Assembly: GCA_963796685.1 (NCBI GenBank)
Contig: CAWCMR010000016.1
Location: 1-62,918 of the forward strand
Direction: 5' to 3'
DNA: 62,918 nt
Origin: an uncultured delta proteobacterium
Lineage (GTDB): Bacteria > Myxococcota_A > Polyangia > Fen-1088
The notes under the pieces are model-generated. The model was not told the DNA's origin. It ran no database searches and saw nothing but the letters and a program-made list of their open reading frames with translations. Position numbers and translations under genes: made by a program. This document shows positions 182 through 15,045 of this stretch, in pieces (the stretch's first letter is position 1; every line of letters starts with the position of its first letter).

Positions 182-3100
182 GTGGCAGACGTATCGAAAC
201 GTAGCGTTCTCTCGGTCCTGATCAAGGGACGGTTGGAAGATCTCGGGCGAAACTTTGGCGTTTCTGTCCCAACCACGGGGACAAAGGATGCCCAGGTGGC
301 CGTCCTGGCGGATTCGCCACTGGACTTGCCGAGCATCCTTGGGCGGCTAAGGCGGGATGAGTTGCGGTCGGCCTGTCGTGCGCACGGGCTGGATGCCACG
401 GGGCGTGGACGCGGCGACCTGATGGCGCGATTGGCCGGACCGGGACTGGCCACGGGAGCGCGCGAAGGTGAGCCAGCGTGGCAGCGCTTGCACCAGGCTG
501 ACGGCCTGCCGCGCGAGGGCCAGATCGTGCAAGTCCGGCACCGGCAGTATTTGGTCACCGGGGTCACCACACCAGAGCTCGGCGAAGACAGGTCAGGACA
601 AACCCTGGTCAGCCTGGTCTGTCTCGACGACGATGCAGCTGGGCGGCGGCTCGAAGTCCTGTGGGAGCGGGAGCTGGGCGCGCGAGTATTCACGCCCGAG
701 GAACGTGGGCTTGGCGACCGGCTCGATCCGCCACGCCAGTTCGCCGCCTACCTGCATGCCTTGAAGTGGGGCTGCGTGACCGCCACGGATGCGCGGCTTT
801 TTCAGGCGCCGTTTCGCGCGGGGGTGAAGGTTCTCGACCACCAGATGGTACCGCTTCGTAAGGCGCTGGAATTGCCGCGCGTGAATCTCTTCCTGGCCGA
901 CGACGTCGGCTTGGGCAAGACCATCGAGGCGGGGCTCATCTTGCAGGAGCTGATTCTGCGCCAGCGCGTGGATCAGGCGTTGATCATCTGCCCGGCAGCC
1001 TTGGCCTTGCAGTGGCGAGCCGAGATGGAGAAGCGGTTCGGCATCCGTTTCGAGATCTACAACCGCGACTTCGTGGTGCGCCGCCGCGAGGAGCGCGGCT
1101 TCGGCGTGAATCCCTGGACCACTTTTCCACGCTTCATCATCTCGTACCAGACCCTGCGCCGGCCCGAGTATCGAGAGCCCCTCCTGCGTCACTTGGATCA
1201 GCGCGCGCCCAAGAGCCTGCTCATCATGGACGAGGCGCACACGGCGGCGCCCGCGTCGGCATCGAAGTACGCGGTCGATTCTAACGTCACCCATGTCGTG
1301 CGCGAGGTGGCGCCCAAGTTCGAGCATCGCCTATTCCTCTCGGCCACCCCGCACAACGGCCACTCGAACAGTTTCTCGTCGCTCCTGGAAATCCTCGATC
1401 CGCAGCGATTCACTCGCGGCGTGCCTGTCTCCGGTCCCAAGCAACTCGAACCGGTGATGGTCCGGCGCCTGAAGGGCGAGTTGCGCGAGCTGGGCATCGA
1501 GGGCTATCCGTTGCGGCGGGTGATTCAGATAGACCTCACGCACGGGCCGGGTGGCTGGCAGCAACGCCACATTGTCGACGGCCGCGGGACAGCGCCGGGT
1601 GCGGTCGGAGAGGGCTCCGACGCCGAGATCGAGCTTTCCGCTCTCCTAGCCCAGTATTCATCCCTGCTAAAACAGAAGAACCGCCGCAGCAGGTTGGTGA
1701 TCGCCAATCTGCAAAAGCGGTTGCTCTCCAGCATCGAGGCTTTCGCCCGCACCCTGGCCGTTCACGCCAAGAGCGTTGGCACCCGCGCGGACAAGGCAAC
1801 CGCGACCGGCCCTACGCCAGACGACAGCGAATACGGTGAGGACGAGGCGACCTCGGACGAGCGCTTCGACGCGCAGATGTTCATGTTCTCCGGCGCCCTC
1901 GCGGCCCCTAGCACCGACGCGCGCGCCTTGCTGGAACGCATGACCGGCCTGGCGGAACAGAACCGCCGCGCGCCCGGCCCCAAGGTGCTGGCCCTGCTCG
2001 ACTGGATTCGCCGCAACCAGTGTCCGGCAGTCCAGCTTGGTGGAGCGGCTCGCGCTCGCGTGCCAGCGCCGTGGACCGACCGGCGGGTCATCGTCTTCAC
2101 CGAGTATGCGGACACCAAACGCTATCTCGCCACCATCCTGCGCGCTGCTTTCGACGGCACGGCCGACGGCGATCTGCGCCTGATGGAATTCCACGGCGGC
2201 ATGTCCGACCGCCAGCGCGAAGAGGTCCAGCGCGCGTTCAACGGGCCGCCGGAGCAGTATCCCGTGCGAATCCTGCTCGCCACCGACGCAGCTCGCGAGG
2301 GCGTGAACCTGCAGGGTTACTGCGCGGACATCTTCCACTTCGATGTGCCTTGGAACCCCGCCCGGCTTGAACAGCGCAACGGCCGCGTGGATCGAACCCT
2401 GCAACGGGAGAAGGAAGTTCGCTGCCACTACTTCGTCTACCCGCAGCGAGCTGAGGACCACGTGCTGCAAGTCCTGATCGAAAAGGTCGAGCGCATCCGC
2501 CGCGACCTGGGCACCCTGGGCGAGGTCGTCGCCGAACGCCTGGCCGAGGTGCTGGAAGAGGGCATCGGCCCCAACACGGAAGCCCGCCTGGACGAGGCCG
2601 AGCGCATCGACGATCTGAAGACCAGCGCAACCCGCGACCTTGAATCCGTACACGCCGTCCAGAAGGCCCGCGAGGACATCGACCTCGTGGCCAACATCCT
2701 GAACGACTCGCGCAAGGTCATGGACTACGAGCCCGGTCTCCTTCGCGAGGCCATCGACGTGGGTCTCGGCCTCGGCGGCGGGGCCTCGCTCATTCCCACC
2801 GCGACGCCGCACACCTTCAACCTGCCCGAGCTCGGCGACACCTGGCAAACCACCTTGGACGCCTTCCGCCCGCCGCGCGAGCGTGACGAGAGCTTCGATG
2901 AATGGCGCAAGCACCCGCTGCGGCCGGTGACCTTCGTTTCGCCCGAGCACCTGACCGATGAGGTCGTGCAACTTCACCTGCAACATCCCTTCGTCCAGCG
3001 CGTGCTGTCGCGTTTCCGCGCGCAGGGTTGGGCGGCGCACGACCTCGGCCGCGTGACCGTTCTGCGCAACCAGAGGGACTCCCTCGTTCGCGTCATCGGC

Positions 3101-3688
3101 ATTGGCCGACTATCGCTGTTCGGCCCGGGCGCCACCAGGCTGCACGAAGAAATGATCCTGGTCGCCGCCCACTGGCTCGACAATCGGGCCGACGGCCGCC
3201 TCAAACCGTTCGCCGAGGAGGCCGACCGCAAGGCCATCGCCGATCTGGAACGCCTTCTCGCCGAGGCCCCCCAGCAGCCCGAGATCAGCGACACCGTCCA
3301 GCGCCGCCTGCAGCAGGCCGCGTCCGCGGATTTCAGCGATCTTTGGCAGCACATCCAGGCCGAAGGCGAGAGCCGCGAGCACGACGCCGCCGAGAAGCTA
3401 CGCCTCCGAGCCCGCACCGAGTCCGACGCCCTGAAGAAGATCCTCACCGACCAGCGCGACGCCATCAAACAGACCCTGCAAGGGCAACAACTTTCCTTCG
3501 GCTTCACCGAGGCTGACAAGATCCAGCGCATCCAATTCGAGCAAGACCGCAAGCACATGAGCGCCCGCCTCGATCAGATCGACCGCGAGATCCAAACCGA
3601 GCCCCGAGAAATCGAAGCGCTCTACCAGGTCGTCCTCAGGCGTCTTGAACCCGTCGGCCTCGTTTACCTGTGGCCCGCAACGAGATGA
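182..3688 (+). CDS. drmD: DISARM SNF2-like helicase DrmD, with N-terminal SAP-like extension
   Basis: SF2/SNF2 motifs ADDVGLGKTIEAG, DEAH, LSATPHNG, TDAAREGVNLQ, PWNPARLEQRNGRVDR; directly upstream of an adenine MTase and in the same locus as drmABC. Confidence 0.9.
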   Translation: MADVSKRSVLSVLIKGRLEDLGRNFGVSVPTTGTKDAQVAVLADSPLDLPSILGRLRRDELRSACRAHGLDATGRGRGDLMARLAGPGLATGAREGEPAWQRLHQADGLPREGQIVQVRHRQYLVTGVTTPELGEDRSGQTLVSLVCLDDDAAGRRLEVLWERELGARVFTPEERGLGDRLDPPRQFAAYLHALKWGCVTATDARLFQAPFRAGVKVLDHQMVPLRKALELPRVNLFLADDVGLGKTIEAGLILQELILRQRVDQALIICPAALALQWRAEMEKRFGIRFEIYNRDFVVRRREERGFGVNPWTTFPRFIISYQTLRRPEYREPLLRHLDQRAPKSLLIMDEAHTAAPASASKYAVDSNVTHVVREVAPKFEHRLFLSATPHNGHSNSFSSLLEILDPQRFTRGVPVSGPKQLEPVMVRRLKGELRELGIEGYPLRRVIQIDLTHGPGGWQQRHIVDGRGTAPGAVGEGSDAEIELSALLAQYSSLLKQKNRRSRLVIANLQKRLLSSIEAFARTLAVHAKSVGTRADKATATGPTPDDSEYGEDEATSDERFDAQMFMFSGALAAPSTDARALLERMTGLAEQNRRAPGPKVLALLDWIRRNQCPAVQLGGAARARVPAPWTDRRVIVFTEYADTKRYLATILRAAFDGTADGDLRLMEFHGGMSDRQREEVQRAFNGPPEQYPVRILLATDAAREGVNLQGYCADIFHFDVPWNPARLEQRNGRVDRTLQREKEVRCHYFVYPQRAEDHVLQVLIEKVERIRRDLGTLGEVVAERLAEVLEEGIGPNTEARLDEAERIDDLKTSATRDLESVHAVQKAREDIDLVANILNDSRKVMDYEPGLLREAIDVGLGLGGGASLIPTATPHTFNLPELGDTWQTTLDAFRPPRERDESFDEWRKHPLRPVTFVSPEHLTDEVVQLHLQHPFVQRVLSRFRAQGWAAHDLGRVTVLRNQRDSLVRVIGIGRLSLFGPGATRLHEEMILVAAHWLDNRADGRLKPFAEEADRKAIADLERLLAEAPQQPEISDTVQRRLQQAASADFSDLWQHIQAEGESREHDAAEKLRLRARTESDALKKILTDQRDAIKQTLQGQQLSFGFTEADKIQRIQFEQDRKHMSARLDQIDREIQTEPREIEALYQVVLRRLEPVGLVYLWPATR

Positions 3689-3691
3689 CCC

Positions 3692-6600
3692 ATGTCCGAC
3701 ATCGAGATTGATTTTCACAAGACCTGGCTCGGCTTCGTTCAGCCGGTCGAGGGCCTGGTTTTCTCGATCCCGGTCCTGCTCGACGCCGGTTGCATGGAGC
3801 GCAAGCCCGTCGCCCTCCAGCAACGCCTGCGCGAGCTCGCCCCCGCCGTCAGCGACGACCCCGGCGCCGCCCGCCAGCTCGCCGACCTCGACCGATTTCT
3901 CACCGACATCCTCGACCTGCCCCCCGACCTCTTCGACCGCGCCGACGCCCTTCCCCCCGACCTATCCCTCTACGTCCCCGAAGGCCGCCAAGACCTCCGC
4001 CCCACCCTCGCCCTGCGAAAGCAGCCCCAAACCGAATCCCCCGACCAAGGGTCCCCTCGCCCCGCAAGCGAAGCGCAGCGGGGAGAGGGACAGGGTGAGG
4101 GGGATCTCCTCCCCGACGACACCACCCCCGCCAGCCGCGCCGGTGCCGCCTACGAAATGCTCATCTGGTCCCTCCCCCCCGGTCTCGACCTCGACAAGCC
4201 CGAGATCGCCACCGGCCCCTGGGAATACGCGCCCGCGGCCAAGCTCGATCGCCTCCTGCGCGCCACTCGCGTGCCCATCGGGCTGCTGACCAACCATCAA
4301 TGCCTCCGCCTCATCTACGCCCCGCACGGCGAGGCGACCGGCTCCATCACCTTCTCGCTCGCCACCATGGCCGACGCCGGCGGGCGGCCAGTGCTCGACG
4401 CCTTCGCTACCCTGCTCTCCGCCGGCCGATTCTTTGCCGTTTCCCCCGAACGCCAGCTTCCCCAGATCCTGCGCGACAGCCGCCGCCGCCAGGCCAACGT
4501 CACCAACCAGCTTGCCGACCAGGTCCGCCAGGCCCTGGAATTCCTACTGCGCGGTTTCGAGTCCGCCGCCGACCGCGACAAAACCGGCACCCTCGACGAG
4601 GCCCTGGCCCGCGACGACGACCACGTCTACGGCGGCCTACTGACCGTCCTTCTGCGCCTGGTGTTTCTCCTCTACGCCGAGGATCGCGAGCTTCTGCCCA
4701 TCGGCGACAGCCGCTATTCCCGCCACTATTCGGTGCTGGGCTTGTTCGAGCAGTTGCAAGACGACCACGCCAACTTCCCCGACACCATGGTGCGCCGGTT
4801 CGGCGCCTGGCCGCGCCTGCTGGCCCTGTTCCGCATCGTGTTCGAAGGCGCGCAGCACGGACCCCTGGTCTTGCCCGCCCGCCGCGGCGACCTGTTCGAC
4901 CCCGCCCGCTACCCCTTCCTGGAAGGCTGGCCCGCGACCGGCGGCGCCCCCGTCGACACCGTGGCCCGCGCCAGCGTGCAGGTGCCCAGCGTCGACGACG
5001 AATCGATCTACCGCGTGCTCGAGAAGCTGCTCTACCTCGACCACCAGCGCCTGTCCTATCGCGCCCTCGACGTCGAGCAGATCGGCAGCGTGTACGAGGC
5101 CCTGATGGGCTTCCACGTCGTGCGCGTCCCCTCGCGCGCGGTGTGCGTGCGCGGCCCGCGCGTCTGGGTGCCTGTGACCGACCTGCTGGAAGTCGCGCCC
5201 GATCGCCGCGCCGCCTGGCTGGAGGACGAGGCCGGCGTCGAAAAGAGCGCCCTCAAGAAGGCCGGCGCCGACATCAAGGCCGCCAAGACCGAGGACGAGC
5301 TGCATCGCCGCCCTGCAAACCATCCAGGCCCGCGACACCGAGGTGGCGCGCCCGCTGCAAATCGTCCTGCAACCCGGTGTCGAGCGCCGCCGCACCAGCT
5401 CGCACTACACCCCGCGCTCGCTGTCCGAGCCCATCGTGCGGCGAACCCTAGAGCCGCTCATCGGCGCCATGACTCAAGTAGACGGCACCCCTCCCTCCGA
5501 GCGCCTACTCGACCTCAAGATCTGCGACCCGGCCATGGGCTCGGGCGCGTTCCTGGTGGCCGCTTGCCGCTTCTTGGCCGACCAGGTGGTGGCCGCGTGG
5601 ACGCGCGAGGGCCGCATGGAGGCCGTTGCCTCCGCCACCGAGGACGTCGTGACGCAAGCCCGCCGCCTGGTCGCCCAGCGCTGCCTGTACGGCGTAGACA
5701 AGAACCCCTTCGCCGTCAGTCTGGCCAAGCTGTCCCTGTGGCTGGTGACCCTGGCCAAGGACGAGCCCTTCACCTTCGTCGACCACGCCCTTCGCCACGG
5801 CGACTCGCTGGTCGGCCTGTCGCTCGATCAAATCCGAGCCTTCCACTGGAAACCCGAAAGCCAGCTTGAGCTGGTGGGCAAAGAGATCGAGACCGCCATC
5901 GACGAGGCCCTGGCCCTGCGCCTACGCATTCTCGACTTGGCACGCGACCACGGCAGCGCCATCACACGCGAGAAAGAGCGCCTGCTCTGGGACGCCGAGG
6001 ACGCCCTCGACCGCGTGCGCGTGATCGCGGATCTGGTCGTGGGCGCGTTCTTCGTCGCGGACGGCGACAAGGCCCGACAGGCCGAGCGCAACCGCCGTAT
6101 GGATCTCGTCACCACCTGGCTGCGCGATGGTGGCCCCGTTCCCGCCGAGCTGCGCGACCTGTGCGACGAGCTTCGCCAAGATGGCGAGGGACGCAAGGGC
6201 CTCCCGCCCTTTCACTGGATGATCGAATACCCCGAGGTCTTCTACGGTGAGCGCCCCGATCCCCTGGACAAGGATCACGTGAATCGAGCGGCGTGGATGG
6301 ATGCGTTTGTGGGGAATCCACCGTTTGCCGGCAAGAACGGCATCAGTGCCGCTGGCGGCGATGCGTACCTTCCCTGGCTACAACAGATCCACCCAGGCAG
6401 CCACGGCAACGCCGACCTCTGCGCGCACTTCTTCCGCCGCGCCGACTTCCTGTTAGGCGAGCACGGCACTATCGGCCTCATTGCCACGAACACCATTGCT
6501 CAGGGCGATACCCGCAGCACCGGCTTGCAGAACATAGTCAACGGCGGTAGCGCCATCTACGACGCCGTCCGCAGTATGAAATGGCCTGGTGAGGCCAACG

Positions 6601-7778
6601 TCTCCGTATCCGTTGTCCACATGGCCAAGGGCCACCTGGCCAGTGTCTCCGGTTTGCGGCGGCGGCTGGACGGGATCGAGGTCGCGGCGATCAACTCGCG
6701 CCTGCGGCCCAAGCCCGAGCGACCTGACCCGCATCCTCTCGCCGAGAACGCGGGCCTGAGCTTTGTCGGGAGCTACGTCCTTGGAATGGGCTTCATCCTT
6801 ACGCCCGATGAGCGGGACGCACTGATTCGCAAGAACAAGCGCAATGCCGAGCGGATCTTTCTTTACGTCGGTGGCGAGGATCTAAATACCAGTCCAACGC
6901 TGTCCAGTGATCGGTACGTGATCAACTTTGGCGACCTGCCGCTGGCGGAGGCAGAGAAGTGGCCGGACCTGGTCGCAATTCTGCGACAAAAAGTCAAACC
7001 GGAACGGGACAGGAACAACCGGAAGGCATATCGAGACTACTGGTGGCATTTCGGAGAAAAACGGCCGGAACTCTACGAAACGCTCAAGGGCAGAACGCGG
7101 TGCCTGGTAACATCGGGCATCAGCAAGCATCGCATTTTCGCGTTGTCGCCGACGGACCGAATCTTTAGCCACAACGTCTACGTTTTCCCGCTGGATGCGA
7201 ACACGCATTTCGCGGTTCTCCAGTCGCGCGCGCACATTGCGTGGACATCTCTTCTAGCTTCCGGGTTAGAGGACCGAGGTGGCTACCGTCCTTCCGACTG
7301 CTTCGACACCTTCCCATTCCCCGCCGCCGAGACCCTGACCCCCACCGGCGACCTCGAAGCCATCGGCACCCGTCTCTACGAAACCCGCGCCCACCTGATG
7401 GTCGAGCGCAACCAGGGCCTGACGACCAGCTACAACCAGCTCAAAGACCCCGCCTGCGACGACCCCGAGATCCTCGCCCTCCGCCGCCTCCACGAAGACC
7501 TCGACCGGGCAGTCCTCGCCGCCTACCACTGGTCCGACATCCCCGTCCCCCCATTCGAAACACCCACCACCCCCGCAGCCCGCACCGCCCAAGAATCCTT
7601 CGAAGACGAAATTATAGACCGCCTCTTCGCCCTCAACGCCGACCGGGCAGAAAAGGAACGTCTGCAAGGCGCCGGGGTTCGGCCCGCCTCAAAGTCTCGC
7701 AAATCGTCGAAAGCCCACGGAGGCGATGTACAGCTCAGTTTCGATTCGGAGCCGACGAGCAGGAAGGGCAAGCGATGA
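3692..7778 (+). CDS. drmMI: DISARM class I N6-adenine DNA methyltransferase DrmMI (Type IIG/MmeI-like architecture); +1 frameshift near 5303
   Basis: ORF 3692 joins ORF 5343-7778 if one base is removed at ~5303 (..EDEL-IAALQTIQARDTEVARPL..); IGSVYEAL, HYTPRSL, DPAMGSGAFL (motif I), GNPPF (motif IV), C-terminal target-recognition region. Confidence 0.85.
4053..4103. repeat. REP-like palindromic element inserted in frame inside drmMI
   Basis: cccctcgccccgc..gcggggagaggg..gggtgagggg; reverse complement resembles the intergenic copy at 41239-41295; translated as part of GSPRPASEAQRGEGQGEG. Confidence 0.65.
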
Positions 7779-9154
7779 CCTCCCTCGAAGAAGCCCGTCA
7801 AGCACTCGACCGCGCGGTGGAGGAAATCCGGTCGATCGAGATACCCGATCCCAAGAATCACCGACTTGTCGAGAGAGCAGCAAGAGCGGCTTTCGGTGGG
7901 GTATGCCGACTGATCGCTCTGATCCAGAAGAACCTCCACCTGGCTCGCGCGGCCGAGGAGTCGTCCTCTGACTACCGTCGGGAGGAGGCCCGTCTTCATG
8001 CGGAGGAGCGAAGCGCGCTGCTGCGACTGCGAAGGATCAGGAACGCGATTGTCGCCAAGTGCCAGAGTCTGGATCCATCGGTGCAAGTCACGGACCAGAC
8101 CGACGGCTCCAAGCTGGTCTCTGGGTTTGACGAATTCCTCGAAAAGGGGCTGAAGAAGCTGGGGCAGGATGATTCCTTTTTTTCGAGCGGCAAGCACAAG
8201 GCAACCGAACGACTATGGAATGTACTGGATTATGTAGACGAACATGAACCCCGGCTTGATCGCTGGAAGGAGGGGTGCCGAGCCAGCTCGATGAACCTGG
8301 GGCAGCTTCGTCGCGCTCGACATGTTCTGGACGAGAGCAGCCCCGGCAAGAGGTGGCTGCGGCTTGTCGACGTACCGGTCGCGGCCAACCCTCCCGAAGG
8401 TCCCCAGTTATGGCTGAGCGAATCCAACAGCTGGGAACCTCCGGCGCTGGGTCCGCTCTACAAGCTGGTCCACCACCAGCGATTCCTTGACGAGCCAGAG
8501 TGCAGGAGGGCTTGCGATTGGCTGTCGGACTTGCGAACGAGCCTGCATGCCGTTGCAAGCGACTTCCATGCCCGGCTTGGTCGGCGAGCGTCCATCGCCT
8601 GGATCCTGGAACGTTACGCGCGCCGTTGCCGACGCCTTCGGCGAAACGAATTGAGAGAGATGCTGGAGGAGCTTGCGCCGACCGAGAAACGAGAGCTTGC
8701 ACTGACCCGCGATGCAGCCGTGTTCCTGTTCGACCATGGCTTCGAGGTGCTGACCGAGCAATCTGAGGGAACTCACCGCTATGACATCATTGGAGATCAG
8801 CTTCTTGTCGAAGCTAAGATCTACGATGGCAGGCGTCGCGGTCTGGCTGCCGTCGCGGAAGGGCTATCACAAATCCACCAGTACGCGAACACGCTGGCCG
8901 ACGGAGGAGTACACGTCGAGCCGGTTCTTCTCGTCTTCCGCCTTGGCGGCCCGCGCGCGACGCCAGTGTTGGAGTACAAGATCGGTAACCTCCCCGTAAC
9001 CATCGCTCACGTCGATCTGGGAACAAGCGTCGATAGCGGCAGCAATTCGCCACCACCAGAACCCGACATCACCGAGGCGATCATCGCAGCCAAACTTGCA
9101 CGCATGACGAGTGCTCCTGGAAGAAGAACCAAGAAGGGACATCGAGGCGGGTAG
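7775..9154 (+). CDS. Hypothetical protein with helical N-terminus and C-terminal PD-(D/E)xK restriction-endonuclease-like domain
   Basis: ATG at 7775 overlaps the drmMI stop (ATGA); C-terminal E..(RYD)..LLVEAK..GLSQIHQY fits PD-(D/E)xK plus QxxxY. Confidence 0.65.
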   Translation: MTSLEEARQALDRAVEEIRSIEIPDPKNHRLVERAARAAFGGVCRLIALIQKNLHLARAAEESSSDYRREEARLHAEERSALLRLRRIRNAIVAKCQSLDPSVQVTDQTDGSKLVSGFDEFLEKGLKKLGQDDSFFSSGKHKATERLWNVLDYVDEHEPRLDRWKEGCRASSMNLGQLRRARHVLDESSPGKRWLRLVDVPVAANPPEGPQLWLSESNSWEPPALGPLYKLVHHQRFLDEPECRRACDWLSDLRTSLHAVASDFHARLGRRASIAWILERYARRCRRLRRNELREMLEELAPTEKRELALTRDAAVFLFDHGFEVLTEQSEGTHRYDIIGDQLLVEAKIYDGRRRGLAAVAEGLSQIHQYANTLADGGVHVEPVLLVFRLGGPRATPVLEYKIGNLPVTIAHVDLGTSVDSGSNSPPPEPDITEAIIAAKLARMTSAPGRRTKKGHRGG

Positions 9155-9157
9155 ATC

Positions 9158-9889
9158 ATGGGTACGCTGTTTTCCACCGACATACCAATCGTTCAGGACC
9201 TGACCGATCACGGCGATGTTCCGGTCGTGCACACCGGCTGTGCGGTCTACAGCATCGACAGCGCAGGTAGGCGCTGGGTCCGCAAGCGCGAATCAAACAC
9301 CGGCGTCGAGGAGCTCCTCGCCGAGATGATCGGCTGGCTGCTGGCGCGCAGGTTGCTCGTTCCGGTTCCCGAGGCTGGCGTGTTTGTTGTCGGGAATGAT
9401 CGGTCATGGCTCAGCGCCGAGATTCAAGATGTCCTGCACTGGGATTCGTCGCGGGCTCCCTTCGTGACCAACATGGCCGGGCTGGGTGCCATGATGGCCC
9501 TCGATACGATGATCCTGAATGAGGACCGGCATGCGGGAAACATCCTGCTTCAGCCTTTCCCGGACCAACTTCACCTGAAGGTATGGGCGGTCGACCACGG
9601 AAGCGCCTTGGTAGGTTGGCCGAGCGACTACGTGGCGCGGCGGGGGCAAATCCCTGATCCGCGAAACCTTGCGCCCGGGCTGCCGATGGATCTTGTGCAG
9701 GACGGCGCCATGGAAGCGGCGGAAAAGGCGACTTACCTGGTCTTGCAGGACATACTTGCTCTCGTAAGGGAGGCTTGCACCAACGCCGCGGAGCAGAAGA
9801 TTGACGAAATCGTAAGCGTTTTGGCAGAGCGCTGCGCGAATGCCAGGGCACTTGTCGAGAGCTACCTCAAGCGTATAAGAGGGGGCTGA
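9158..9889 (+). CDS. HipA-like (HipA_2-type) kinase
   Basis: WVRK, LLAEMIGWLLARRLLVPVP, LDTMILNEDRHAGNILL catalytic loop, VDHG metal-binding motif; 243 aa. Confidence 0.8.
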   Translation: MGTLFSTDIPIVQDLTDHGDVPVVHTGCAVYSIDSAGRRWVRKRESNTGVEELLAEMIGWLLARRLLVPVPEAGVFVVGNDRSWLSAEIQDVLHWDSSRAPFVTNMAGLGAMMALDTMILNEDRHAGNILLQPFPDQLHLKVWAVDHGSALVGWPSDYVARRGQIPDPRNLAPGLPMDLVQDGAMEAAEKATYLVLQDILALVREACTNAAEQKIDEIVSVLAERCANARALVESYLKRIRGG

Positions 9890-9891
9890 CC

Positions 9892-10734
9892 ATGATCGCG
9901 AGATACCGAGTTGTCCATTTCGTGCCCGACCCGTTCACCGGGGCGCGAATTCCGCTGGCCGCCATCGTGGCCGGGGGCGGTGGTGTGTCGATAGCGTCAG
10001 CCGGTCACGTTCCCGGGGCCGTGTGCCTGGGCCGACCTTCAACCTATGCGGCGATGCAAATGGTTCTCGAGTCGCTTTCCGCCGTCGAGAGTCTCGATGT
10101 CCTGCCGGTGGCGATCGGCCCCCATGCGGTGCTCGATGTTGAGCGCCAGATTCCCGGTGACGTCGCGGATCCCGTGCGATGGGTCGTCGAGAATGTGCTA
10201 CCGCGAACCGACGAGGCGCAGCCTGCTCGTGCCGCCAAGAGCCATCATCGAGACACGCAAGGGTTCCGCCTTTTTGAAACCTGGAAGGTTTCGCAGTACG
10301 TACATCAGCGATTTCAGCCGGACGAGCATTGGGCAGGCATGCGGGTAGGCGTGCCGCGGAAGCTCGGGTCCATATCGCACTGGGTTGGTGCTTCCAAGGT
10401 GGGCATTCTCCTCATGGAGCCGCTGATCCCGACTCGATCAGGATTCCAACGGGAGCTCGTCGAGGTGTACCAGCGGTTCGCCGGCTATCGTGCCTTTCTC
10501 GACCGGGGCGGCGCACCCGAGGAGGCGAAGCAGCACACCAAGCTATGTGTCTACGTCCTTCCTGGCGGGAAATCAGGGGACCGCAGTAGCGCCCTCGGCG
10601 CGTTCGCCGACGTCGAAGCTGTTACGATCGATACCGAAAGCGATTCAGCCCAAAGATCGTTCGTCGAGGAGATCCGAGCCCTGGGCCGCGCGGCCGAGCC
10701 GCAGACCGACCTATCGGATCCGCAGACGAACTAG
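9892..10734 (+). CDS. DUF3037-like partner of the HipA-like kinase
   Basis: N-terminal YRVVHFVPDPFTGARIPLAAIV resembles the DUF3037 motif; starts 2 nt after the kinase stop, the usual gene order for this pair. Confidence 0.6.
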   Translation: MIARYRVVHFVPDPFTGARIPLAAIVAGGGGVSIASAGHVPGAVCLGRPSTYAAMQMVLESLSAVESLDVLPVAIGPHAVLDVERQIPGDVADPVRWVVENVLPRTDEAQPARAAKSHHRDTQGFRLFETWKVSQYVHQRFQPDEHWAGMRVGVPRKLGSISHWVGASKVGILLMEPLIPTRSGFQRELVEVYQRFAGYRAFLDRGGAPEEAKQHTKLCVYVLPGGKSGDRSSALGAFADVEAVTIDTESDSAQRSFVEEIRALGRAAEPQTDLSDPQTN

Positions 10735-10741
10735 AGACGGG

Positions 10742-11056
10742 CTACCGTCTCGCTGCCTTCTTGCTTGCCCGAGGCCGGACGACGAGCGCCCCGCTCGAAT
10801 CCACGGATCCGCCACGGGCGAGCTTTCCCGCCACGGCACCGATTGACAGCCTGCGACTTCGATTCGCTAGCTCGCCCAGCGTCGTTACCTCGACATGGTT
10901 TCGGTTTAACCTGCCCTGTTCATCAATGAGACCGATCTTGACCAGCCGCTGGAAGCCCTTGAGCGGTGGGACCTTCTTCGCCTTCGCGAGCGCGCGCAGG
11001 CTCTGCCGCACAATGCGGTCCACTGGATCGGCCGATGCCACCGAAGCTCTGATCAT
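10742..11056 (-). CDS. Small basic protein, candidate antitoxin
   Basis: 104 aa with LVKIGLIDEQGRL motif, immediately downstream of the ART-like gene on the same strand. Confidence 0.45.
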   Translation of the reverse strand: MIRASVASADPVDRIVRQSLRALAKAKKVPPLKGFQRLVKIGLIDEQGRLNRNHVEVTTLGELANRSRRLSIGAVAGKLARGGSVDSSGALVVRPRASKKAARR

Positions 11057-11102
11057 GGCTTCAGCGTACCTCTCGCGCGCGAGGATTGCCAGGGTCCAGG
11101 CG

Positions 11103-11687
11103 TCATGGCTCGCCCCGTGGCTTGAACAGTCCGCAAATGGCCCCGGGTCGTCTCACCGCAAGCTGAATATGTGTCTCCCGACGGATGAGGGCCTCCGGGA
11201 AAGCAGGGGCGCCCTCTTCGAAGGCTCCGCGGACGATACTGTACCGCTCGCGTAGACCTGGATCGCTCAACAGCGAGTTGATGACGAGGCAGTCAAGGTG
11301 GTGCCGCTTGCGTTCGGACTTCTCATTGCCGGGAAGCTGCGAGCCGGCGGCGGCATATTGCGCCGCGAGCACTCGATGGGCCTGCCCCAGCATCTCGGTA
11401 AACCTGACATCGGTAAGGTCCAGAACGTCGTTCCCAAGAAGGATGATCGCGCCGACCACTGCGGGCCTCGCCCTTCTCCCTTTGGCCGTCGCCCTCCTTG
11501 CCCGGTCCTCAGCCCACCGTCTTGCCCGGCCGGGACCATGTTCCCAAAAGTAGATGCCCTCACCAAGCCAATCCCACGCGTTCTTACTGACCGGCCAGTC
11601 CTCGACGGACCTGCGTCCGGTCAGCAAATCGGAGGCCAAAGGCTCCAGGCACCCATGGTATCCGACAACGACTCGGGGAAAGTTCAT
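11103..11687 (-). CDS. ADP-ribosyltransferase-fold (DUF3990-like) putative toxin
   Basis: GYHG, DWLGEGIYFWE, LDCLVIN and THIQLAV motifs match the H-Y-[E/Q] ART pattern; 194 aa. Confidence 0.65.
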   Translation of the reverse strand: MNFPRVVVGYHGCLEPLASDLLTGRRSVEDWPVSKNAWDWLGEGIYFWEHGPGRARRWAEDRARRATAKGRRARPAVVGAIILLGNDVLDLTDVRFTEMLGQAHRVLAAQYAAAGSQLPGNEKSERKRHHLDCLVINSLLSDPGLRERYSIVRGAFEEGAPAFPEALIRRETHIQLAVRRPGAICGLFKPRGEP

Positions 11688-11761
11688 CGCAGAACCGAAC
11701 GATACGCCGTCTGACGGTCCGATTGCCAGTTTCGCGAGACTGCGTCGAGCAGGTAGGCCAT
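11684..11761 (-). pseudogene. Stub of a DUF4411-like PIN-domain gene (MAYLLDA...)
   Basis: ATG directly follows the ImmA stop (TAG ATG); encodes MAYLLDAVSRNWQSDRQTAYRSVLR*; its TGA overlaps the ART-like ATG. Confidence 0.55.
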
Positions 11762-12904
11762 CTACGCGACACCGAGGTTCTGGCCCAGCTTGTGGAGTGT
11801 CTCGACCTTCGAGATCCCAAGCATGCGCATGGCATCGCGGAACAGGGTCTGACCCTCCAGCGTGTTGGACAACAACGCGCGCGTGAAGCGCTTACTCGTT
11901 CGCGCCGCTTGGGTCAGGTAGAAGTTGCCTCCGCCCCCTTTCTCGCGCGCGAGCAGCCGGCTCAACTCCGCCTCGAATGCGTCGAAAAAGGCCGCCTTGC
12001 TCAGAACTCGAGCATCACGGAGCCGGCGAATGACGACCAGCGTGCTGACCTTGAACCTTCTGGCCAGGCGGGTGGTCTCGCCGTCCAACGGGACCTTGGG
12101 CTGGTGCTCGGCTCGGAGAGCCGCCAGCGGTACCAAAAGCTCGGCCGCGACTTGGTTGCACCAGCGCTCAGTCTCGCGGTCCGGCACGTCTCGCACCGTG
12201 GCGTCCGAGACGCCGGACTGGCCAATCCACAGGTGCGCCAGCTCGTGCGCGAGCGTGAACATCTGAGCTGCCTTGGTGTCGGCGCCGTTGATGAAGACCA
12301 GCGGGGCCATCGGGTCAGAGAGCGCGAAGCCCCGGAACTCGTCGGGATCGAGCTTCCGACTGTTGTTGTTCAACACCACGCCGCTGCACATGACCATCAC
12401 ACCAGCCATCTCGGTTTGGCCGATGAAGTCACGGAGAGCGTCAGTCCAGGTTGGGCAAGCGGCGCGGGCAGCGAGGTCAAAGCCCAGCGTTTGCCGCATC
12501 GACTCGGCGACGGCCACGACGTCGTGCTTGACGGTGACGGAACCGACAAAGGCGCTTGGCGCGACCCCGGCTGTGATGGCGAAGTCCCGGTACCAGCTCT
12601 GACGTTCCTGGCAGATGTAGATGGTCTCAAGCAGATTCGGACTGGGTCGGGCCGGCGGCTGGTCACCGATGGTACGGAAGTCCGGCAGCGGCAGCGTATC
12701 GACAGGCGGCTCGGGTAGAAAGAAGTATCCGACCGGCGTCAACGTCGCCTTCGCCAGGGCTTCCAACTGCTTCAGCGTCGGCTGGGCGGTGCCGCTCTCC
12801 CAGTCGGGCAGCTTCGCGAAGCGCTCCGTGAGCGCGGCCAGGGGTATCCCGGCGCGATCACGCGCCCAGCGAAACAAGGCAGGGCTAACCTCGGCGCGAA
12901 GCAT
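11762..12904 (-). CDS. Xre-HTH plus ImmA/IrrE (M78) metallopeptidase
   Basis: N-terminal HTH (RWARDRAG..WESGTAQPTLKQLE), FRGFAL, FTLAHELAHLW HExxH, ERWCNQVAAELLVP; likely start ATG 12904. Confidence 0.88.
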   Translation of the reverse strand: MLRAEVSPALFRWARDRAGIPLAALTERFAKLPDWESGTAQPTLKQLEALAKATLTPVGYFFLPEPPVDTLPLPDFRTIGDQPPARPSPNLLETIYICQERQSWYRDFAITAGVAPSAFVGSVTVKHDVVAVAESMRQTLGFDLAARAACPTWTDALRDFIGQTEMAGVMVMCSGVVLNNNSRKLDPDEFRGFALSDPMAPLVFINGADTKAAQMFTLAHELAHLWIGQSGVSDATVRDVPDRETERWCNQVAAELLVPLAALRAEHQPKVPLDGETTRLARRFKVSTLVVIRRLRDARVLSKAAFFDAFEAELSRLLAREKGGGGNFYLTQAARTSKRFTRALLSNTLEGQTLFRDAMRMLGISKVETLHKLGQNLGVA

Positions 12905-12989
12905 GGGACAGACAGATAGTATCCTGGCGGGGGACACGGAAGCCAGAAGTCGGCTACCCGCGCGGTAGCCATTCCAGTAGAATGTCCTT

Positions 12990-13679
12990 ATGCGGCGGAA
13001 ATTCCTTGGCGACGCTCTCGACTTTTGGAAGGGATCGATGCTGAGAGCGATGGGCCCCGGCACGCCCCTTCGCGTGGCAGCGATGATTCCAGACCACGAA
13101 CCCTGGACGGATGAGGAAAAGGCGACCTATGCAGACTTGTTGGGTCTGCATGTGGACGATGTCGAGTTCAACCAGTTCACGACCGAGCAGCGGAAAATCT
13201 ACTTCTTGCGTCTTCGCCTGGCGAACCAGGACGCAGACTTTTTCCTGGACCCCGACACGGGGCTAGCTACGTCGAAGAAAGAGAAGAAGGCTGACCACCA
13301 GCACGCCAGCCCAGCCGAGGTGAGGAGGCTCCTGGCCGATGGGAACGTTGTGGCCATCTACCAGCACAGCCGCCACGAAAAGGCCTGGCTCCTGAAATCC
13401 GCCGAACCTTTCCGCGATGTCCATGTCGTTGGCTGCGAATGCACCCACGCCGGGATGCTATTCGTCACTCGAAGCCGAAATCGGGCGTTGAAGGTGCGCG
13501 ACGCGCTTGCCGACAGATTGGGTGCGGCAAGAATGAGGGTGTGGCTGCTCGGCCCCAGGCTGAAAGCGTTCGTTCGCGAGGCCATTGAGAGTGAACAGAT
13601 TACGCTCGGCCGAGGCGCGGAGATCTTGGGCCTCGACCTGTCGGAGATGCGGAAACTGACGGCATCTTGGGTCCGATAG
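12990..13679 (+). CDS. Hypothetical protein (GD..D..K / FLDPDTGL / YQH family) with ImmA-type C-terminal HTH tail
   Basis: 229-aa ORF; family-like motifs FLGDALDFWKG, FFLDPDTGL, IYQH; ends in EQITLGRGAEILGLDLSEMRKLTASWV. Confidence 0.55.
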   Translation: MRRKFLGDALDFWKGSMLRAMGPGTPLRVAAMIPDHEPWTDEEKATYADLLGLHVDDVEFNQFTTEQRKIYFLRLRLANQDADFFLDPDTGLATSKKEKKADHQHASPAEVRRLLADGNVVAIYQHSRHEKAWLLKSAEPFRDVHVVGCECTHAGMLFVTRSRNRALKVRDALADRLGAARMRVWLLGPRLKAFVREAIESEQITLGRGAEILGLDLSEMRKLTASWVR

Positions 13680-13847
13680 CCCGCCACGACCAAGATTCGG
13701 TCTTCGCAAAGTCTGTTTGCCCCTGCAGTGGTCGACTCGTGAGCGATGATGCGAATTCTCGGCAGGTGGTCGGCAACTCGTGCTTGCGAACCACGTACCC
13801 AGCGATCTAGGCTGGCCGAACTGAGGTAGCAACAATGGAAGGGGAGA

Positions 13848-14918
13848 ATGATGGGCAACCAAGACAGCATTGAATCGAAGAAGGCTGACCTTGAAGTTGA
13901 GAAGCTTCGGCTGGAAATAGCCATTCTAAAGCGTGACCCGTGGCGTATCGGCGTAAGCATCTTGGTGCCCATTGTCGCAGCGGCCTTGGCTGCCGTCGTT
14001 GCCCTCTTCCTCTATAACCGACAGGTCAGGGACAATCAGACCAAGGCGGATCAGCACCGGATTGAGGCACTCGTAGGTAGCGTTGAGCTCACTGGCGATC
14101 TCGACACTCCTCTTACGAGCTTGGCACAGCTTGAACTGGAGCGCAGTTCCGATTTGGCTTCTTTCGCCAGATACTTGCCGACGCTGGGAGCCCGTTGCAT
14201 TCAGGCACTCAGGAACATCCAGAGAGTGAATGCGGATCCAAAGGAGAAAGGATTCGTTGCGGCACAGGAAAGAAAGTCGAAGCTTTGCGAAATAGCGAGG
14301 CGGCTCAAGGAGCTTGGTGCTTGTGTCGGCGAAGATCCCGTCAAGGACTGCCGCACAGAGGGCGGCAGCGGAATACTGGGAGCTGAGAGGGGAGCCACGG
14401 CTGCCGAGCCAGCTCCCAAGCTCCTCGACGCAGTCACTCTCCCCGGGGCCGTTTCGGACGTTCATCTGGCGAACACTCAGCAAGATGGCAGTCGCAATTC
14501 GTCACCACAAATTGCTGCGTCTTCTCCACCAAGGGTCTGGAGCATCAGTCAGGCTGACGGATCGAACACGGGTGCTGGTTGCACGTGCAGGTACCCCACG
14601 AACATCATTGGCAAGGCTGTGGACTTGCGCGCAGGCGAGACGGTTTGGCTGATGGTCAAATCCCATGTGGATGGGCTTACATATCCCCAGCCAGGTCCGC
14701 TCACTGTCGAACAGAACGGTGTCGTCCAACTCGGCGCCGCGTGGCCGGGCACACCGAAGGAAGGGTGCGAGCAGTCGTTCACGTTCATACTTGCACGTGC
14801 GAGCCGAGGAGCAACCAAGCAACTTCGGGAGATGCATAGGAATTTCAAGGGCTTCACCTCGGGACCTCATGGCTACCGGGAGGAAGCATCTTTCGGTCCT
14901 TGTAAACGAAGATGCTGA
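13848..14918 (+). CDS. Hypothetical single-pass membrane protein with Cys-containing beta-rich C-terminal domain
   Basis: GA-rich RBS; TM segment IGVSILVPIVAAALAAVVALFLY; visibly lower GC than flanking genes. Confidence 0.55.
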   Translation: MMGNQDSIESKKADLEVEKLRLEIAILKRDPWRIGVSILVPIVAAALAAVVALFLYNRQVRDNQTKADQHRIEALVGSVELTGDLDTPLTSLAQLELERSSDLASFARYLPTLGARCIQALRNIQRVNADPKEKGFVAAQERKSKLCEIARRLKELGACVGEDPVKDCRTEGGSGILGAERGATAAEPAPKLLDAVTLPGAVSDVHLANTQQDGSRNSSPQIAASSPPRVWSISQADGSNTGAGCTCRYPTNIIGKAVDLRAGETVWLMVKSHVDGLTYPQPGPLTVEQNGVVQLGAAWPGTPKEGCEQSFTFILARASRGATKQLREMHRNFKGFTSGPHGYREEASFGPCKRRC

Positions 14919-15045
14919 GCCACCTGTTTTCGACGAGTCAATCTCCTTTGTGGGCGCCCCTGACCTCTACGACCATGGAACCGCCGGATATCGCGGTTGA
15001 CAACGAAGAGACCCGCGACAGGACTTGGCGTATCATCGTCGCAAA

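What the first reader, a model, noticed from the sequence alone, without database searches (positions are those of the whole stretch)
7775..10734. Nuclease / HipA-like kinase / DUF3037-like triad translationally coupled into a DISARM operon
Seen: three genes follow drmMI with an ATGA overlap and 3-nt and 2-nt gaps, so they are probably on the drmD-drmMI transcript. Gene 1 has a PD-(D/E)xK plus QxxxY-like motif behind an unrecognised helical domain; gene 2 has intact HipA-type kinase motifs; gene 3 has a DUF3037-like N-terminus. Established: class I DISARM is drmD, MI, A, B, C and does not include these genes; HipA-like kinases often pair with DUF3037. Inference: a phosphorylation-controlled nuclease/toxin module acting as a back-up or guard for DISARM (for example abortive infection when DISARM is inhibited). 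I do not know of a described three-gene system of this form.
Basis: partly seen in the sequence, partly recalled or inferred. Interest (0 to 1): 0.82.

Follow-up and report, generated by a model that had tools for sequence, protein, structure and literature searches.

The report
Defence genes nested inside DISARM operon
Three tightly packed genes sit inside a DISARM anti-phage operon, but they look like two separate defence modules, a divergent HipA-like kinase with its DUF3037-like partner and an uncharacterised nuclease, lodged in a slot that holds different cargo in related bacteria.

Summary
Three co-oriented genes (7775-9154, 9158-9889, 9892-10734) follow drmMI with an ATGA overlap, a 3-nt gap and a 2-nt gap. 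Gene 1 has a helical N-terminal region and a C-terminal PD-(D/E)xK domain. Gene 2 is a full-length homologue of HipA_2 kinases (hhalign 99.3%). Gene 3 is DUF3037-like, but below every curated threshold.

The reading as one three-gene system is only partly supported. The kinase and gene 3 are adjacent in 19 of 20 related loci, and the twentieth has no DNA downstream. They resemble the validated HipA-like/DUF3037 defence system (DS-6/HipAD, PDC-M66). Gene 1 accompanies them only in one DISARM-embedded sub-clade and has decayed to a remnant in two loci. Its wider family has at least 646 clusters. It lacks the pair in 12 of 12 other contexts, one of them between hsdS and hsdR of a Type I R-M operon.

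The drmMI|drmA junction is a variable cargo slot: 9 loci show both flanks, 4 carry this trio and 5 carry other genes. Best reading: two nested modules. Gene 1 may be a PrrC-like guard of restriction-type systems.

The parts
182..3688 (+). drmD (SNF2 helicase of class I DISARM); context
   Evidence: PADLOC DrmD PDLC02621, E 0, 1032.7 bits; Pfam SNF2-rel_dom and Helicase_C
3692..7778 (+). drmMI (type IIG-like N6-adenine methyltransferase). Split in the window into two frames (3692-5869 and 5343-7778) by a 1-nt insertion at about 5302
   Evidence: PADLOC DrmMI PDLC02643 matches profile positions 8-508 and 543-1334 in the two ORFs. Single ORF in L001, L038 and L130. The 1-nt gap shows against L038 and L001. 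The extra base is absent from a DNA contig of run X3 and an RNA-library contig of run X19
7775..9154 (+). Gene 1: 459-aa predicted endonuclease. Hypervariable helical N-terminal region (1-300) plus conserved PD-(D/E)xK domain (303-446; E307, D337, E346-x-K348, Q366-xxx-Y370) and a basic C-terminal tail
   Evidence: No Pfam, NCBIfam or PADLOC hit. Alignments A2 and A8. AF2 pLDDT 88.5, pTM 0.84. Foldseek top rows McrC 6hz4_N E 0.035 and EndoMS 5gke E 0.069. VIA: McrC Z 8.3 over 287-421 and AF1548 Z 7.8 over 306-415. N-terminal identity 17-31% against C-terminal 50-85% in most relatives
9158..9889 (+). Gene 2: 243-aa HipA_2-type (PI3/4-kinase-like) Ser/Thr kinase; predicted toxin/effector of the pair
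   Evidence: Pfam PI3_PI4_kinase 26.8 bits (cut-off 27.1) and HipA_2 13.6 bits (cut-off 27). hhalign A1 against 16 HipA_2/PDC-M66A kinases: probability 99.3%, E 2e-20, 226 columns. Invariant K43, E56, D123-R-H125 and D146
9892..10734 (+). Gene 3: 280-aa two-domain protein. DUF3037-like N-domain (1-105) and a restriction-endonuclease-like C-domain (about 106-270) without a canonical catalytic triad; predicted antitoxin/sensor of the kinase
   Evidence: No Pfam or PADLOC hit. hhalign against DUF3037: E 0.0025, probability 12%. ESM Atlas: 28 of 30 hits carry PF11236. AF2 pLDDT 83.6. VIA: PspGI Z 8.9, BstEII 8.5, Cfr10I 8.4, BsoBI 8.1. Always directly downstream of the kinase
10742..13063 (-). Convergent minus-strand cargo: RmrA-like HTH + ImmA/IrrE peptidase (11762-13063) followed by conserved ORFs 11103-11687 (194 aa) and 10742-11056 (104 aa). 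A separate RosmerTA-like module in the same slot
   Evidence: Pfam Peptidase_M78 E 6.7e-18. PADLOC RmrA E 1.1e-17. Conserved in L042 (82.5%) and L001
15025..21039 (+). drmA (15025-18450), drmB (ORF 18092-20287, true start not fixed) and drmC (20284-21039): the core of DISARM, downstream of the cargo slot
   Evidence: PADLOC DrmA E 2.8e-268, DrmB E 4.5e-77, DrmC E 4e-65

Best explanation
The three genes are real and are probably co-transcribed with drmD-drmMI. They are best read as two independent defence modules lodged, with a RosmerTA-like module, in a variable cargo slot between drmMI and drmA of a class I DISARM operon.

Module A is gene 2 plus gene 3, a divergent subfamily of the HipA-like kinase/DUF3037 system (DS-6/HipAD, PDC-M66). 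By homology (inferred), the kinase is a growth-arresting toxin. It is held inactive by the DUF3037-like partner, whose nuclease-like C-domain may bind DNA or a phage cue. Infection releases the kinase, which phosphorylates an essential target and aborts the infection.

Module B is gene 1, a stand-alone DNA endonuclease of a large uncharacterised family. It has a McrC-like PD-(D/E)xK catalytic domain (shown by motif and model). Inferred: this domain is gated by a fast-evolving helical N-terminal domain that senses the trigger. Gene 1 is translationally coupled to the methyltransferase gene and may act as a second line when the restriction-type system fails.
For: - Pair conservation. The kinase plus gene 3 are adjacent in 19 of 20 loci with strong kinase hits, and the twentieth (L043) ends 116 nt after the kinase. 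Gene 3's start overlaps or abuts the kinase stop in 11 of the 12 loci examined; in L050 the conserved start lies 41 nt after the stop.
- Kinase homology. Full-length homology to HipA_2/PDC-M66A kinases.
- Canonical arrangement. Canonical HipA_2 kinases in the same phylum sit directly upstream of PF11236 proteins.
- Gene 3. ESM features point to DUF3037 in 28 of 30 hits, with 210-214 of 256 features shared.
- Literature, passages read. Deleting the HipA-like kinase abolishes defence and deleting DUF3037 is toxic (PMC12548924). A DS-6A catalytic mutant loses defence (PMC13092281).
- Gene 1 independence. It is upstream only where the kinase is at least 72% identical to the window's (L001, L038-L041, L130). 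It is a remnant (HMM positions 404-464) in L042/L043 and absent from 8 loci with at least 300 nt upstream. There was no gene-1-family match in the Archangium minus genome, which has the pair.
- Gene 1 family. 646 representatives at E<=1e-3, mostly full length. None of 12 other contexts has a kinase or gene 3 hit.
- Cargo slot. Of 9 DISARM loci with both flanks visible, 4 hold the trio and 5 hold 1.3-9 kb of other genes.
- Mosaicism. Window against L038: drmA 96%, kinase 91%, gene 3 72.5%, gene 1 44%.
Against: - The 3-nt gene 1/gene 2 spacing is kept in 6 of 7 loci, and gene 1 is retained next to the pair even where its N-domain has been exchanged. That would also fit a functional link.
- Gene 3 fails every curated threshold: Pfam PF11236, PADLOC PDC-M66B and hhalign probability of only 12%. 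Its DUF3037 membership therefore rests on a language-model lead plus gene order.
- Gene 2 is below the Pfam HipA_2 cut-off.
- Only 12 contexts of a family of at least 646 clusters were seen. ORFs in the loci were called by a crude longest-ORF rule.
- No expression or phenotype data exist. RNA-library contigs bridging the gene 2/gene 3 junction (X19, X20) do not prove transcription.
- It is unknown whether the pair in L042/L043 still works without gene 1.
Confidence: 0.6

Rival explanations
1. Integrated triad. The kinase, the DUF3037-like protein and the nuclease form one system in which phosphorylation, or release from the complex, switches on the gene 1 nuclease.
For: Tight packing: 3-nt and 2-nt gaps. 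The gene 1/gene 2 3-nt gap is conserved in 6 of 7 loci. The trio is inherited together in window, L001, L038-L041 and L130. The published DS-6B partner carries a second domain (DUF1829) besides DUF3037 (PMC13092281 passage), and gene 3's C-domain has a nuclease-like fold. Nuclease-like parts therefore do accompany this kinase family.
Against: - The pair occurs without gene 1 in 8 loci with upstream DNA and in one whole genome.
- Gene 1 decayed in L042/L043 while the pair stayed intact.
- 12 of 12 other gene-1-family contexts lack the pair.
- The gene 1 N-domain differs greatly (44% identity overall) between loci whose kinases are 91% identical. This is hard to fit with a dedicated docking surface.
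Confidence: 0.13
2. Gene 1 is a PrrC-like guard of restriction-type systems. It would be held latent by the DISARM (or Type I R-M) methyltransferase/specificity complex and unleashed when a phage anti-restriction protein disables that complex. The kinase pair would be unrelated cargo.
For: - ATGA overlap of the drmMI stop and the gene 1 start in 4 of 4 loci, even where the gene 1 N-domain is exchanged.
- In L132 a gene-1-family gene lies between hsdS and hsdR, with overlapping junctions, in an hsdM-hsdS-X-hsdR operon. This is the position that prrC holds in the prr locus: 'embedded in this operon' is from a PMC3874165 passage; the exact prr gene order is recalled.
- The hypervariable N-domain fits a surface under arms-race selection.
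Against: - 10 of 12 other contexts show no adjacent R-M genes; some are next to IS elements or a CBASS operon.
- Five DISARM loci of the same bacterial family lack gene 1.
- No evidence of physical association. The window's drmMI carries a frameshift.
Confidence: 0.22
3. The genes are plain addiction or selfish modules (a toxin-antitoxin pair and a nuclease of a mobile element) with no role in phage defence, carried passively in a recombination hot spot.
For: Mosaic, variable slot content. Some gene-1-family genes are next to transposases (L129, L137). Several pair loci (L003, L047, L053) have no defence genes nearby.
Against: Homologous kinase/DUF3037 systems defend against phage experimentally. 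The contexts are enriched in defence genes: DISARM, an HsdR fragment (L044), HEPN/MNT (L050), AbiJ-like, RmrA-like and CBASS.
Confidence: 0.05

Closest known systems
HipA-like kinase + DUF3037 system (DS-6 / HipAD; PADLOC candidate PDC-M66; the pair beside Retron-Sda1)
   Same: A two-gene operon with a roughly 240-285-aa HipA_2-type kinase directly followed, with overlapping stop and start, by a partner whose N-terminus is DUF3037-like and which carries a second C-terminal domain. The kinase catalytic motifs are intact. The pair is often found in defence islands (papers).
   Different: Neither protein reaches the Pfam (PF20613, PF11236) or PADLOC (PDC-M66A/B) thresholds. Gene 3's C-domain gave no DUF1829 hit and has a restriction-endonuclease-like fold. 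In this sub-clade the pair is preceded by a nuclease gene and embedded in DISARM. Function is untested.
HipBA / HipBST toxin-antitoxin kinases
   Same: The same kinase superfamily and the same toxin-plus-neutraliser logic (inferred).
   Different: Gene 2 is half the size of HipA. No HipB-like HTH antitoxin is present. The order is kinase first, partner second. The kinase target is unknown.
McrC and other PD-(D/E)xK restriction nucleases
   Same: The gene 1 C-domain has the E...D...ExK...QxxxY motif set and an alpha-beta-beta-beta-alpha-beta core. McrC is the best structural match for that domain (Foldseek E 0.035, probability 0.99; VIA Z 8.3, rmsd 5.0, 129 residues aligned).
   Different: The scores are modest. 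There is no McrB-like GTPase partner. The 300-residue helical N-terminal region matches only generic helical bundles (Z up to 11.4, below the tool's own caution line of about 13 for helical folds). There is no Pfam family for the protein.
PrrC anticodon nuclease embedded in the EcoprrI Type Ic R-M operon
   Same: A latent effector gene embedded inside a restriction-type operon next to the methyltransferase/specificity genes: gene 1 after drmMI, and its relative between hsdS and hsdR in L132 (PMC3874165 passage).
   Different: The fold and predicted substrate differ: a PD-(D/E)xK DNA nuclease here, an ABC-ATPase-like anticodon nuclease there. Association with the host complex is untested. Most relatives are not in R-M operons.
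RosmerTA (RmrT/RmrA)
   Same: The minus-strand gene 11762-13063 matches the RmrA models (HTH + ImmA/IrrE peptidase; E 1.1e-17).
   Different: It is not part of the trio. Its toxin partner was not identified; the two downstream ORFs have no family hit apart from a weak PD-T4-9_A match (E 7e-5).

Membership tests
HipA_2 kinase family (Pfam PF20613) | Score at or above the Pfam gathering threshold (27 bits) | tested here: not met
   13.6 bits, E 0.041, residues 37-80 only. PI3_PI4_kinase scores 26.8 against a cut-off of 27.1.
HipA_2 kinase family (Pfam PF20613) | Full-length profile homology to bona fide members | tested here: met
   hhalign A1 against A7 (16 kinases): probability 99.3%, E 2e-20, 226 aligned columns. 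Of the 16, 6 were scanned against Pfam (5 of them pass PF20613) and 5 against PADLOC (4 match PDC-M66A at E<=1e-4). The rest were included by adjacency to a PF11236 protein or by a local kinase-profile hit.
HipA_2 kinase family (Pfam PF20613) | Catalytic loop D-x-H-x-x-N, Mg-binding D, ATP-binding K/E pair | tested here: met
   K43, E56, D123, R124, H125 and D146 are invariant and N128 is at least 90% conserved in 23 sequences.
DUF3037 (Pfam PF11236) | Match to the Pfam model | tested here: not met
   No hit at E<=10. A whole-genome six-frame search found 0 matches, while 9 of 301 genomes of the phylum matched.
DUF3037 (Pfam PF11236) | Remote homology of the N-terminal domain | tested here: inconclusive
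   hhalign A3 against 9 PF11236 proteins: E 0.0025, probability 12%, 96 columns at the equivalent N-terminal position. ESM Atlas: 28 of 30 nearest clusters carry PF11236, score 0.93.
DUF3037 (Pfam PF11236) | Gene directly downstream of, and overlapping, a HipA_2 kinase gene | tested here: met
   19 of 20 loci. Starts at -4 to +3 nt from the kinase stop in 11 of the 12 loci examined; +41 nt at the conserved start in L050. The same arrangement holds for true PF11236 genes.
PADLOC PDC-M66 (HipA-like + DUF3037 candidate system) | Matches to models PDC-M66A and PDC-M66B | tested here: not met
   P0002 hits only PDC-M03A weakly (E 1.1e-4, catalytic loop). P0003 has no hit at E<=1.
DS-6 / HipAD defence system | Kinase-dependent phage defence; toxicity when the partner is removed | not testable with these tools
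   Known only for the published systems.
PD-(D/E)xK nuclease superfamily (gene 1) | Catalytic D...(D/E)xK motif on a beta-hairpin, with upstream E and downstream QxxxY | tested here: met
   E307, D337 and K348 invariant and E346 and Q366 nearly invariant in 66 diverse relatives. Y370 is nearly invariant in the 23 closer relatives. The residues lie on strands 334-340 and 343-351 and helix 356-376 of the model.
PD-(D/E)xK nuclease superfamily (gene 1) | Structural match of the domain to solved members | tested here: met
   Foldseek: McrC, EndoMS, a CdiA-CT toxin domain, SfsA (E 0.035-0.4, probability 0.84-1.0). VIA: McrC Z 8.3 and AF1548 Z 7.8. The scores are modest.
PD-(D/E)xK nuclease superfamily (gene 1) | Match to a curated Pfam PDDEXK family | tested here: not met
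   P0001 has none. 1 of 30 sampled relatives reaches PDDEXK_4 (22.6 against 22.3 bits).
Class I DISARM | drmD, drmMI, drmA, drmB and drmC present in this order | tested here: met
   PADLOC hits for all five. The composition is as in the 10.1101/2021.12.28.474362 passage.
Class I DISARM | Intact drmMI reading frame | tested here: not met
   1-nt insertion at about 5302 compared with L038 and L001. Public contigs lack it, so it may be an assembly error.
PrrC-like guard of an R-M system (gene 1) | Effector gene embedded in the restriction operon | tested here: met
   ATGA overlap with drmMI in 4 of 4 loci. A relative lies between hsdS and hsdR in L132. However, 10 of 12 other contexts are not in R-M operons.
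PrrC-like guard of an R-M system (gene 1) | Latency through binding to the R-M complex and activation by an anti-restriction factor | not testable with these tools
   No computation run here addresses an interaction of gene 1 with the DISARM or R-M proteins.

The most novel reading that the evidence does not exclude
Gene 1 founds an unrecognised family (at least 646 clusters at 50% identity) of 'restriction-operon guard' nucleases. It would be translationally coupled to the methyltransferase/specificity genes of DISARM and Type I R-M systems. A McrC-like PD-(D/E)xK domain would be held latent by a hypervariable helical domain that monitors the integrity of the restriction complex, or binds phage anti-restriction proteins, and would destroy DNA when the first line is disarmed. 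This is a DNA-level analogue of PrrC. More broadly, the drmMI|drmA junction would be a dedicated docking slot where DISARM recruits interchangeable back-up modules (the HipAD-like pair, a RosmerTA-like module, an AbiJ-like gene).
Probability: 0.22. Interest if true: 0.8.

Novelty: new variant of a known kind. Interest (0 to 1): 0.52.

Why it matters
The kinase/DUF3037 defence system was validated only recently. This locus shows a divergent subfamily that current Pfam and PADLOC models miss, so censuses of that system undercount it.

Gene 1 belongs to a sizeable, unnamed nuclease family. Its domain-level evolution (a nearly frozen catalytic domain and an N-domain at 17-31% identity) looks like an immune sensor-effector. 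Its embedding in DISARM and Type I R-M operons gives a concrete, testable candidate for a second-line guard of restriction systems.

The drmMI|drmA junction holds different cargo in 9 of 9 related loci. This suggests that DISARM operons themselves act as small defence islands, which matters for how such systems are delimited and cloned.

Tried and rejected
- Complex prediction with the kinase, gene 3 and gene 1 (gene 1 as partner) returned 'no answer', score 0.00. It is not used either way.
- PDB sequence searches gave nothing usable for the kinase (actin-fragmin kinase, E 0.24), gene 1 or gene 3.
- Rfam scan of 7000-15500 at E<=0.1: 0 matches, so no retron-like ncRNA of a known family is beside the kinase pair.
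- The gene 1 N-domain matched only generic helical bundles (Z up to 11.4), so no fold is assigned. It was not folded alone.
- I first read the gene-1-like gene in L106 as the CBASS effector, because it follows a CD-NTase (PADLOC E 2e-107). I rejected this after finding an ORF (8418-9182) between them with two hydrophobic helices and a beta-rich part. That ORF is the likelier effector; its resemblance to 2TM effectors is recalled, not tested.
- hhalign of gene 3 against the roughly 310-aa partners of alphaproteobacterial HipA_2 kinases (A4): probability 2.7%. A4 against DUF3037: probability 0.5%. No link shown.
- The gene-1-family profile found 0 of 401 genomes in the phylum of G402. tblastn of three family members against 72,556 plasmids found one plasmid only.
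- RNA evidence: the laid RNA-library contigs gave no cover over most of gene 1 (7815-9820), and contigs cannot show transcripts.
- Literature searches for a described nuclease + HipA-like + DUF3037 trio ('DUF3037'; 'HipA/phage defense/kinase/DUF3037') found none. 'HipAD' as a whole word returned only unrelated papers, so the primary HipAD paper was not seen. bioRxiv supplements and the HTML neighbourhood files of PMC12548924 were not read and could show such trios.

Full report
**Observation.** The window carries a class I DISARM locus on the + strand: drmD 182-3688, drmMI 3692-7778, drmA 15025-18450, drmB (ORF 18092-20287) and drmC 20284-21039 (PADLOC; Pfam). About 7.25 kb of other genes lie between drmMI and drmA. 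The first three are the finding. Gene 1 (7775-9154, 459 aa) starts with an ATG that overlaps the drmMI stop (ATGA). Gene 2 (9158-9889, 243 aa) follows after 3 nt, and gene 3 (9892-10734, 280 aa) after 2 nt. No promoter-like site lies in 7000-15500, and only one weak terminator-like site lies inside the trio. All three proteins have full-length homologues: 23, 23 and 14 clusters at 90% identity among 5.8 billion proteins.

**Gene 2.** Pfam gives PI3_PI4_kinase at 26.8 bits (cut-off 27.1) and HipA_2 at 13.6 bits (cut-off 27). PADLOC gives only a weak PDC-M03A match on the catalytic loop. A profile of 23 relatives aligns over 226 columns with a profile of 16 HipA_2/PDC-M66A-type kinases at probability 99.3%, E 2e-20. 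K43, E56, D123-R-H125 and D146 are invariant and N128 is nearly so. Gene 2 is an intact, divergent HipA_2-type kinase.

**Gene 3.**
- Sequence libraries. It has no Pfam, NCBIfam or PADLOC hit. The PF11236 model finds nothing in the whole genome, while it finds 9 of 301 genomes of the phylum.
- Weak homology signals. The N-terminus (RYRVVHFVPDPFTGxRIP...) aligns with the start of true DUF3037 proteins only weakly (hhalign E 0.0025, probability 12%). Of the 30 nearest ESM-Atlas clusters, 28 carry PF11236, at score 0.93 with 210-214 of 256 features shared, and they are of similar length (253-303 aa).
- Model. The AF2 model (pLDDT 83.6, pTM 0.54) has two domains. The C-domain (about 106-270) matches restriction endonucleases best: PspGI Z 8.9, BstEII 8.5, Cfr10I 8.4 and BsoBI 8.1, with EndoMS and Cdn1 in Foldseek. 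These scores are borderline but the matches are consistent.
- Catalysis. Only one acidic residue (E176) is conserved in the C-domain, so I infer a non-catalytic or non-canonical nuclease-like domain.

**The pair is the conserved unit.**
- Across genome and metagenome contigs, 20 loci have a strong kinase hit. In 19 of them a gene 3 homologue lies directly downstream; the twentieth contig ends 116 nt after the kinase.
- In 11 of the 12 loci examined the start of gene 3 overlaps or abuts the kinase stop; in L050 the conserved start lies 41 nt after it.
- Canonical HipA_2 kinases of the same phylum lie directly upstream of PF11236 genes in the same way and match PDC-M66A/B.
- The literature (passages read) shows that this architecture is a validated defence system. 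In the Retron-Sda1 operon, deleting the HipA-like kinase abolished defence and deleting DUF3037 was toxic (PMC12548924). DS-6 (renamed HipAD) needs the kinase catalytic residue, and its partner carries DUF3037 plus DUF1829 (PMC13092281).

**Gene 1.**
- Sequence and model. There is no curated family. The model is confident (pLDDT 88.5, pTM 0.84): helices to residue 300, then an alpha/beta domain. That domain carries E307, D337, E346-x-K348 and Q366-xxx-Y370. E307, D337 and K348 are invariant and E346 and Q366 nearly invariant in 66 diverse relatives; Y370 is nearly invariant in the 23 closer relatives. Its best structural matches are McrC, EndoMS and AF1548.
- N-domain. It matches only generic helical bundles.
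- Uneven evolution. In most relatives the N-terminal 265 residues are 17-31% identical while residues 266-430 are 50-85% identical. Between the window and L038, drmA is 96% identical, the kinase 91%, gene 3 72.5% and gene 1 44%.
- Family size. 646 representatives at E<=1e-3 and 372 at E<=1e-10, mostly full length. Of 30 sampled, 1 reaches PDDEXK_4 and none matches a PADLOC nuclease model.

**Is it a triad?**
- Gene 1 lies upstream of the pair only in the sub-clade whose kinases are 72-94% identical to the window's: L001, L038, L039, L040, L041 and L130.
- In L042/L043 (kinase 66%) only the last 60 or so codons of gene 1 survive, behind an AbiJ-like gene. The pair is intact there.
- Eight more distant loci with at least 300 nt of upstream DNA have no gene 1. 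The Archangium minus genome, which has the pair, gave no gene-1-family match.
- Conversely, 15 of 401 genomes of the class hold gene-1-family genes. In 12 of 12 contexts outside the sub-clade (L106-L108, L129, L131-L138), no kinase or gene 3 homologue is nearby.
- Those contexts include a position between hsdS and hsdR of a Type I R-M operon (L132), just after a CBASS operon with CapP (L106), a plasmid island with SIR2 and restriction genes, and sites next to transposases.

**The slot.** DrmA occurs in 19 of 89 genomes of the family. Nine DISARM loci show both drmMI and drmA. Four hold the trio (window, L001, L038, L130). Five hold 1.3-9 kb of other genes with no gene 1, 2 or 3 homologue (L151, L153, L154, L156, L157). 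After the trio the window carries a convergent RmrA-like (RosmerTA antitoxin-type) gene and two conserved small ORFs. The junction is therefore a variable cargo site, and the trio is one of several alternative loads.

**What remains of the guard idea.** The ATGA overlap of drmMI and gene 1 is kept in 4 of 4 loci, even where the N-domain of gene 1 is exchanged, and the 3-nt gene 1/gene 2 gap is kept in 6 of 7. Together with the hsdS-X-hsdR relative, this recalls prrC, which is embedded in the EcoprrI operon (PMC3874165 passage). I rate a PrrC-like guard role for gene 1 at about 0.22 and an integrated kinase-nuclease triad at about 0.13.

**Limits.**
- ORFs in the fetched loci were called by a longest-ORF rule.
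- Only 12 outside contexts of a large family were seen.
- There is no phenotype, and expression evidence is only RNA-library contigs that bridge the gene 2/gene 3 junction in two runs.
- The primary HipAD paper was not found in the library.

**Verdict.** A real, well-described locus. Its most likely nature is a nested pair of defence modules: a new, model-escaping variant of the HipA-like/DUF3037 system, plus a member of an unnamed nuclease family, both in a DISARM cargo slot.

Noticed in passing
window 5290-5310 (drmMI): A 1-nt insertion at about 5302, compared with L038 and L001, splits drmMI into ORFs 3692-5869 and 5343-7778. A DNA contig of run X3 (otherwise identical over 5243-5410) and an RNA-library contig of run X19 lack the extra base. 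L130 from the same genus has a single ORF. This is either an assembly error or a recent inactivation.
   Followed up: partly
window 10742-13063, minus strand: A convergent three-gene block: an RmrA-like HTH + ImmA/IrrE peptidase (PADLOC RmrA E 1.1e-17), then a 194-aa ORF (weak PD-T4-9_A match, E 7e-5) and a 104-aa ORF. It is conserved in L042 and partly in L001, L130 and L155. Possibly a RosmerTA-like system whose toxin is unrecognised.
   Followed up: partly
window 13064-15024: GC falls to about 0.58 (0.65 elsewhere). The ORFs 12990-13679 and 13848-14918 (+) and 13358-13972 and 13926-14483 (-) have no family hit and almost no counterpart in L001 or L038. The coding strand is undecided.
   Followed up: no
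L151, L153, L154, L156, L157 (DISARM loci of the same bacterial family): The drmMI|drmA junction holds 1.3 to 9 kb of unrelated genes in every locus seen (9 of 9 with both flanks). DISARM class I in this lineage seems to have an internal cargo hot spot.
   Followed up: partly
L132 6062-13625 (minus strand): A gene-1-family gene (9255-10577) is embedded with overlapping junctions between hsdS (10574-11755) and hsdR (6062-9265), downstream of hsdM, in a Type I R-M operon. By recall, this is the position of prrC in the prr locus.
   Followed up: partly
L106 3791-10623: A CBASS locus: a CapP-like gene (PADLOC E 2.4e-51), a CD-NTase (E 2e-107) and an unannotated ORF 8418-9182 with two hydrophobic helices, probably the effector. 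A gene-1-family gene follows 35 nt later.
   Followed up: partly
L042 887-1880 and L043: In a related DISARM fragment an AbiJ-like gene (Abi_C, PADLOC AbiJ E 5e-19) has replaced most of gene 1, leaving a 3' remnant in front of an intact kinase/gene 3 pair.
   Followed up: yes
L038 1386-4541: A 1051-aa Peptidase_S41 + PDZ protein gene lies between drmD and drmMI in an otherwise 92-96% identical DISARM locus. This is a second variable point in the operon.
   Followed up: no
L005-L027 (alphaproteobacterial loci), e.g. L005 9725-11487: HipA_2 kinases that pass the Pfam threshold are followed, with a 4-nt overlap, by a conserved partner of about 310 aa (alignment A4). The partner has no Pfam or PADLOC hit and no detectable link to DUF3037 (hhalign probability 0.5%). 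It is another unnamed partner family of this kinase type.
   Followed up: partly
window 18092-18450: The longest drmB ORF overlaps drmA by 359 nt, and the PADLOC match starts at residue 136. The real drmB start is probably near the drmA stop. Not checked.
   Followed up: no
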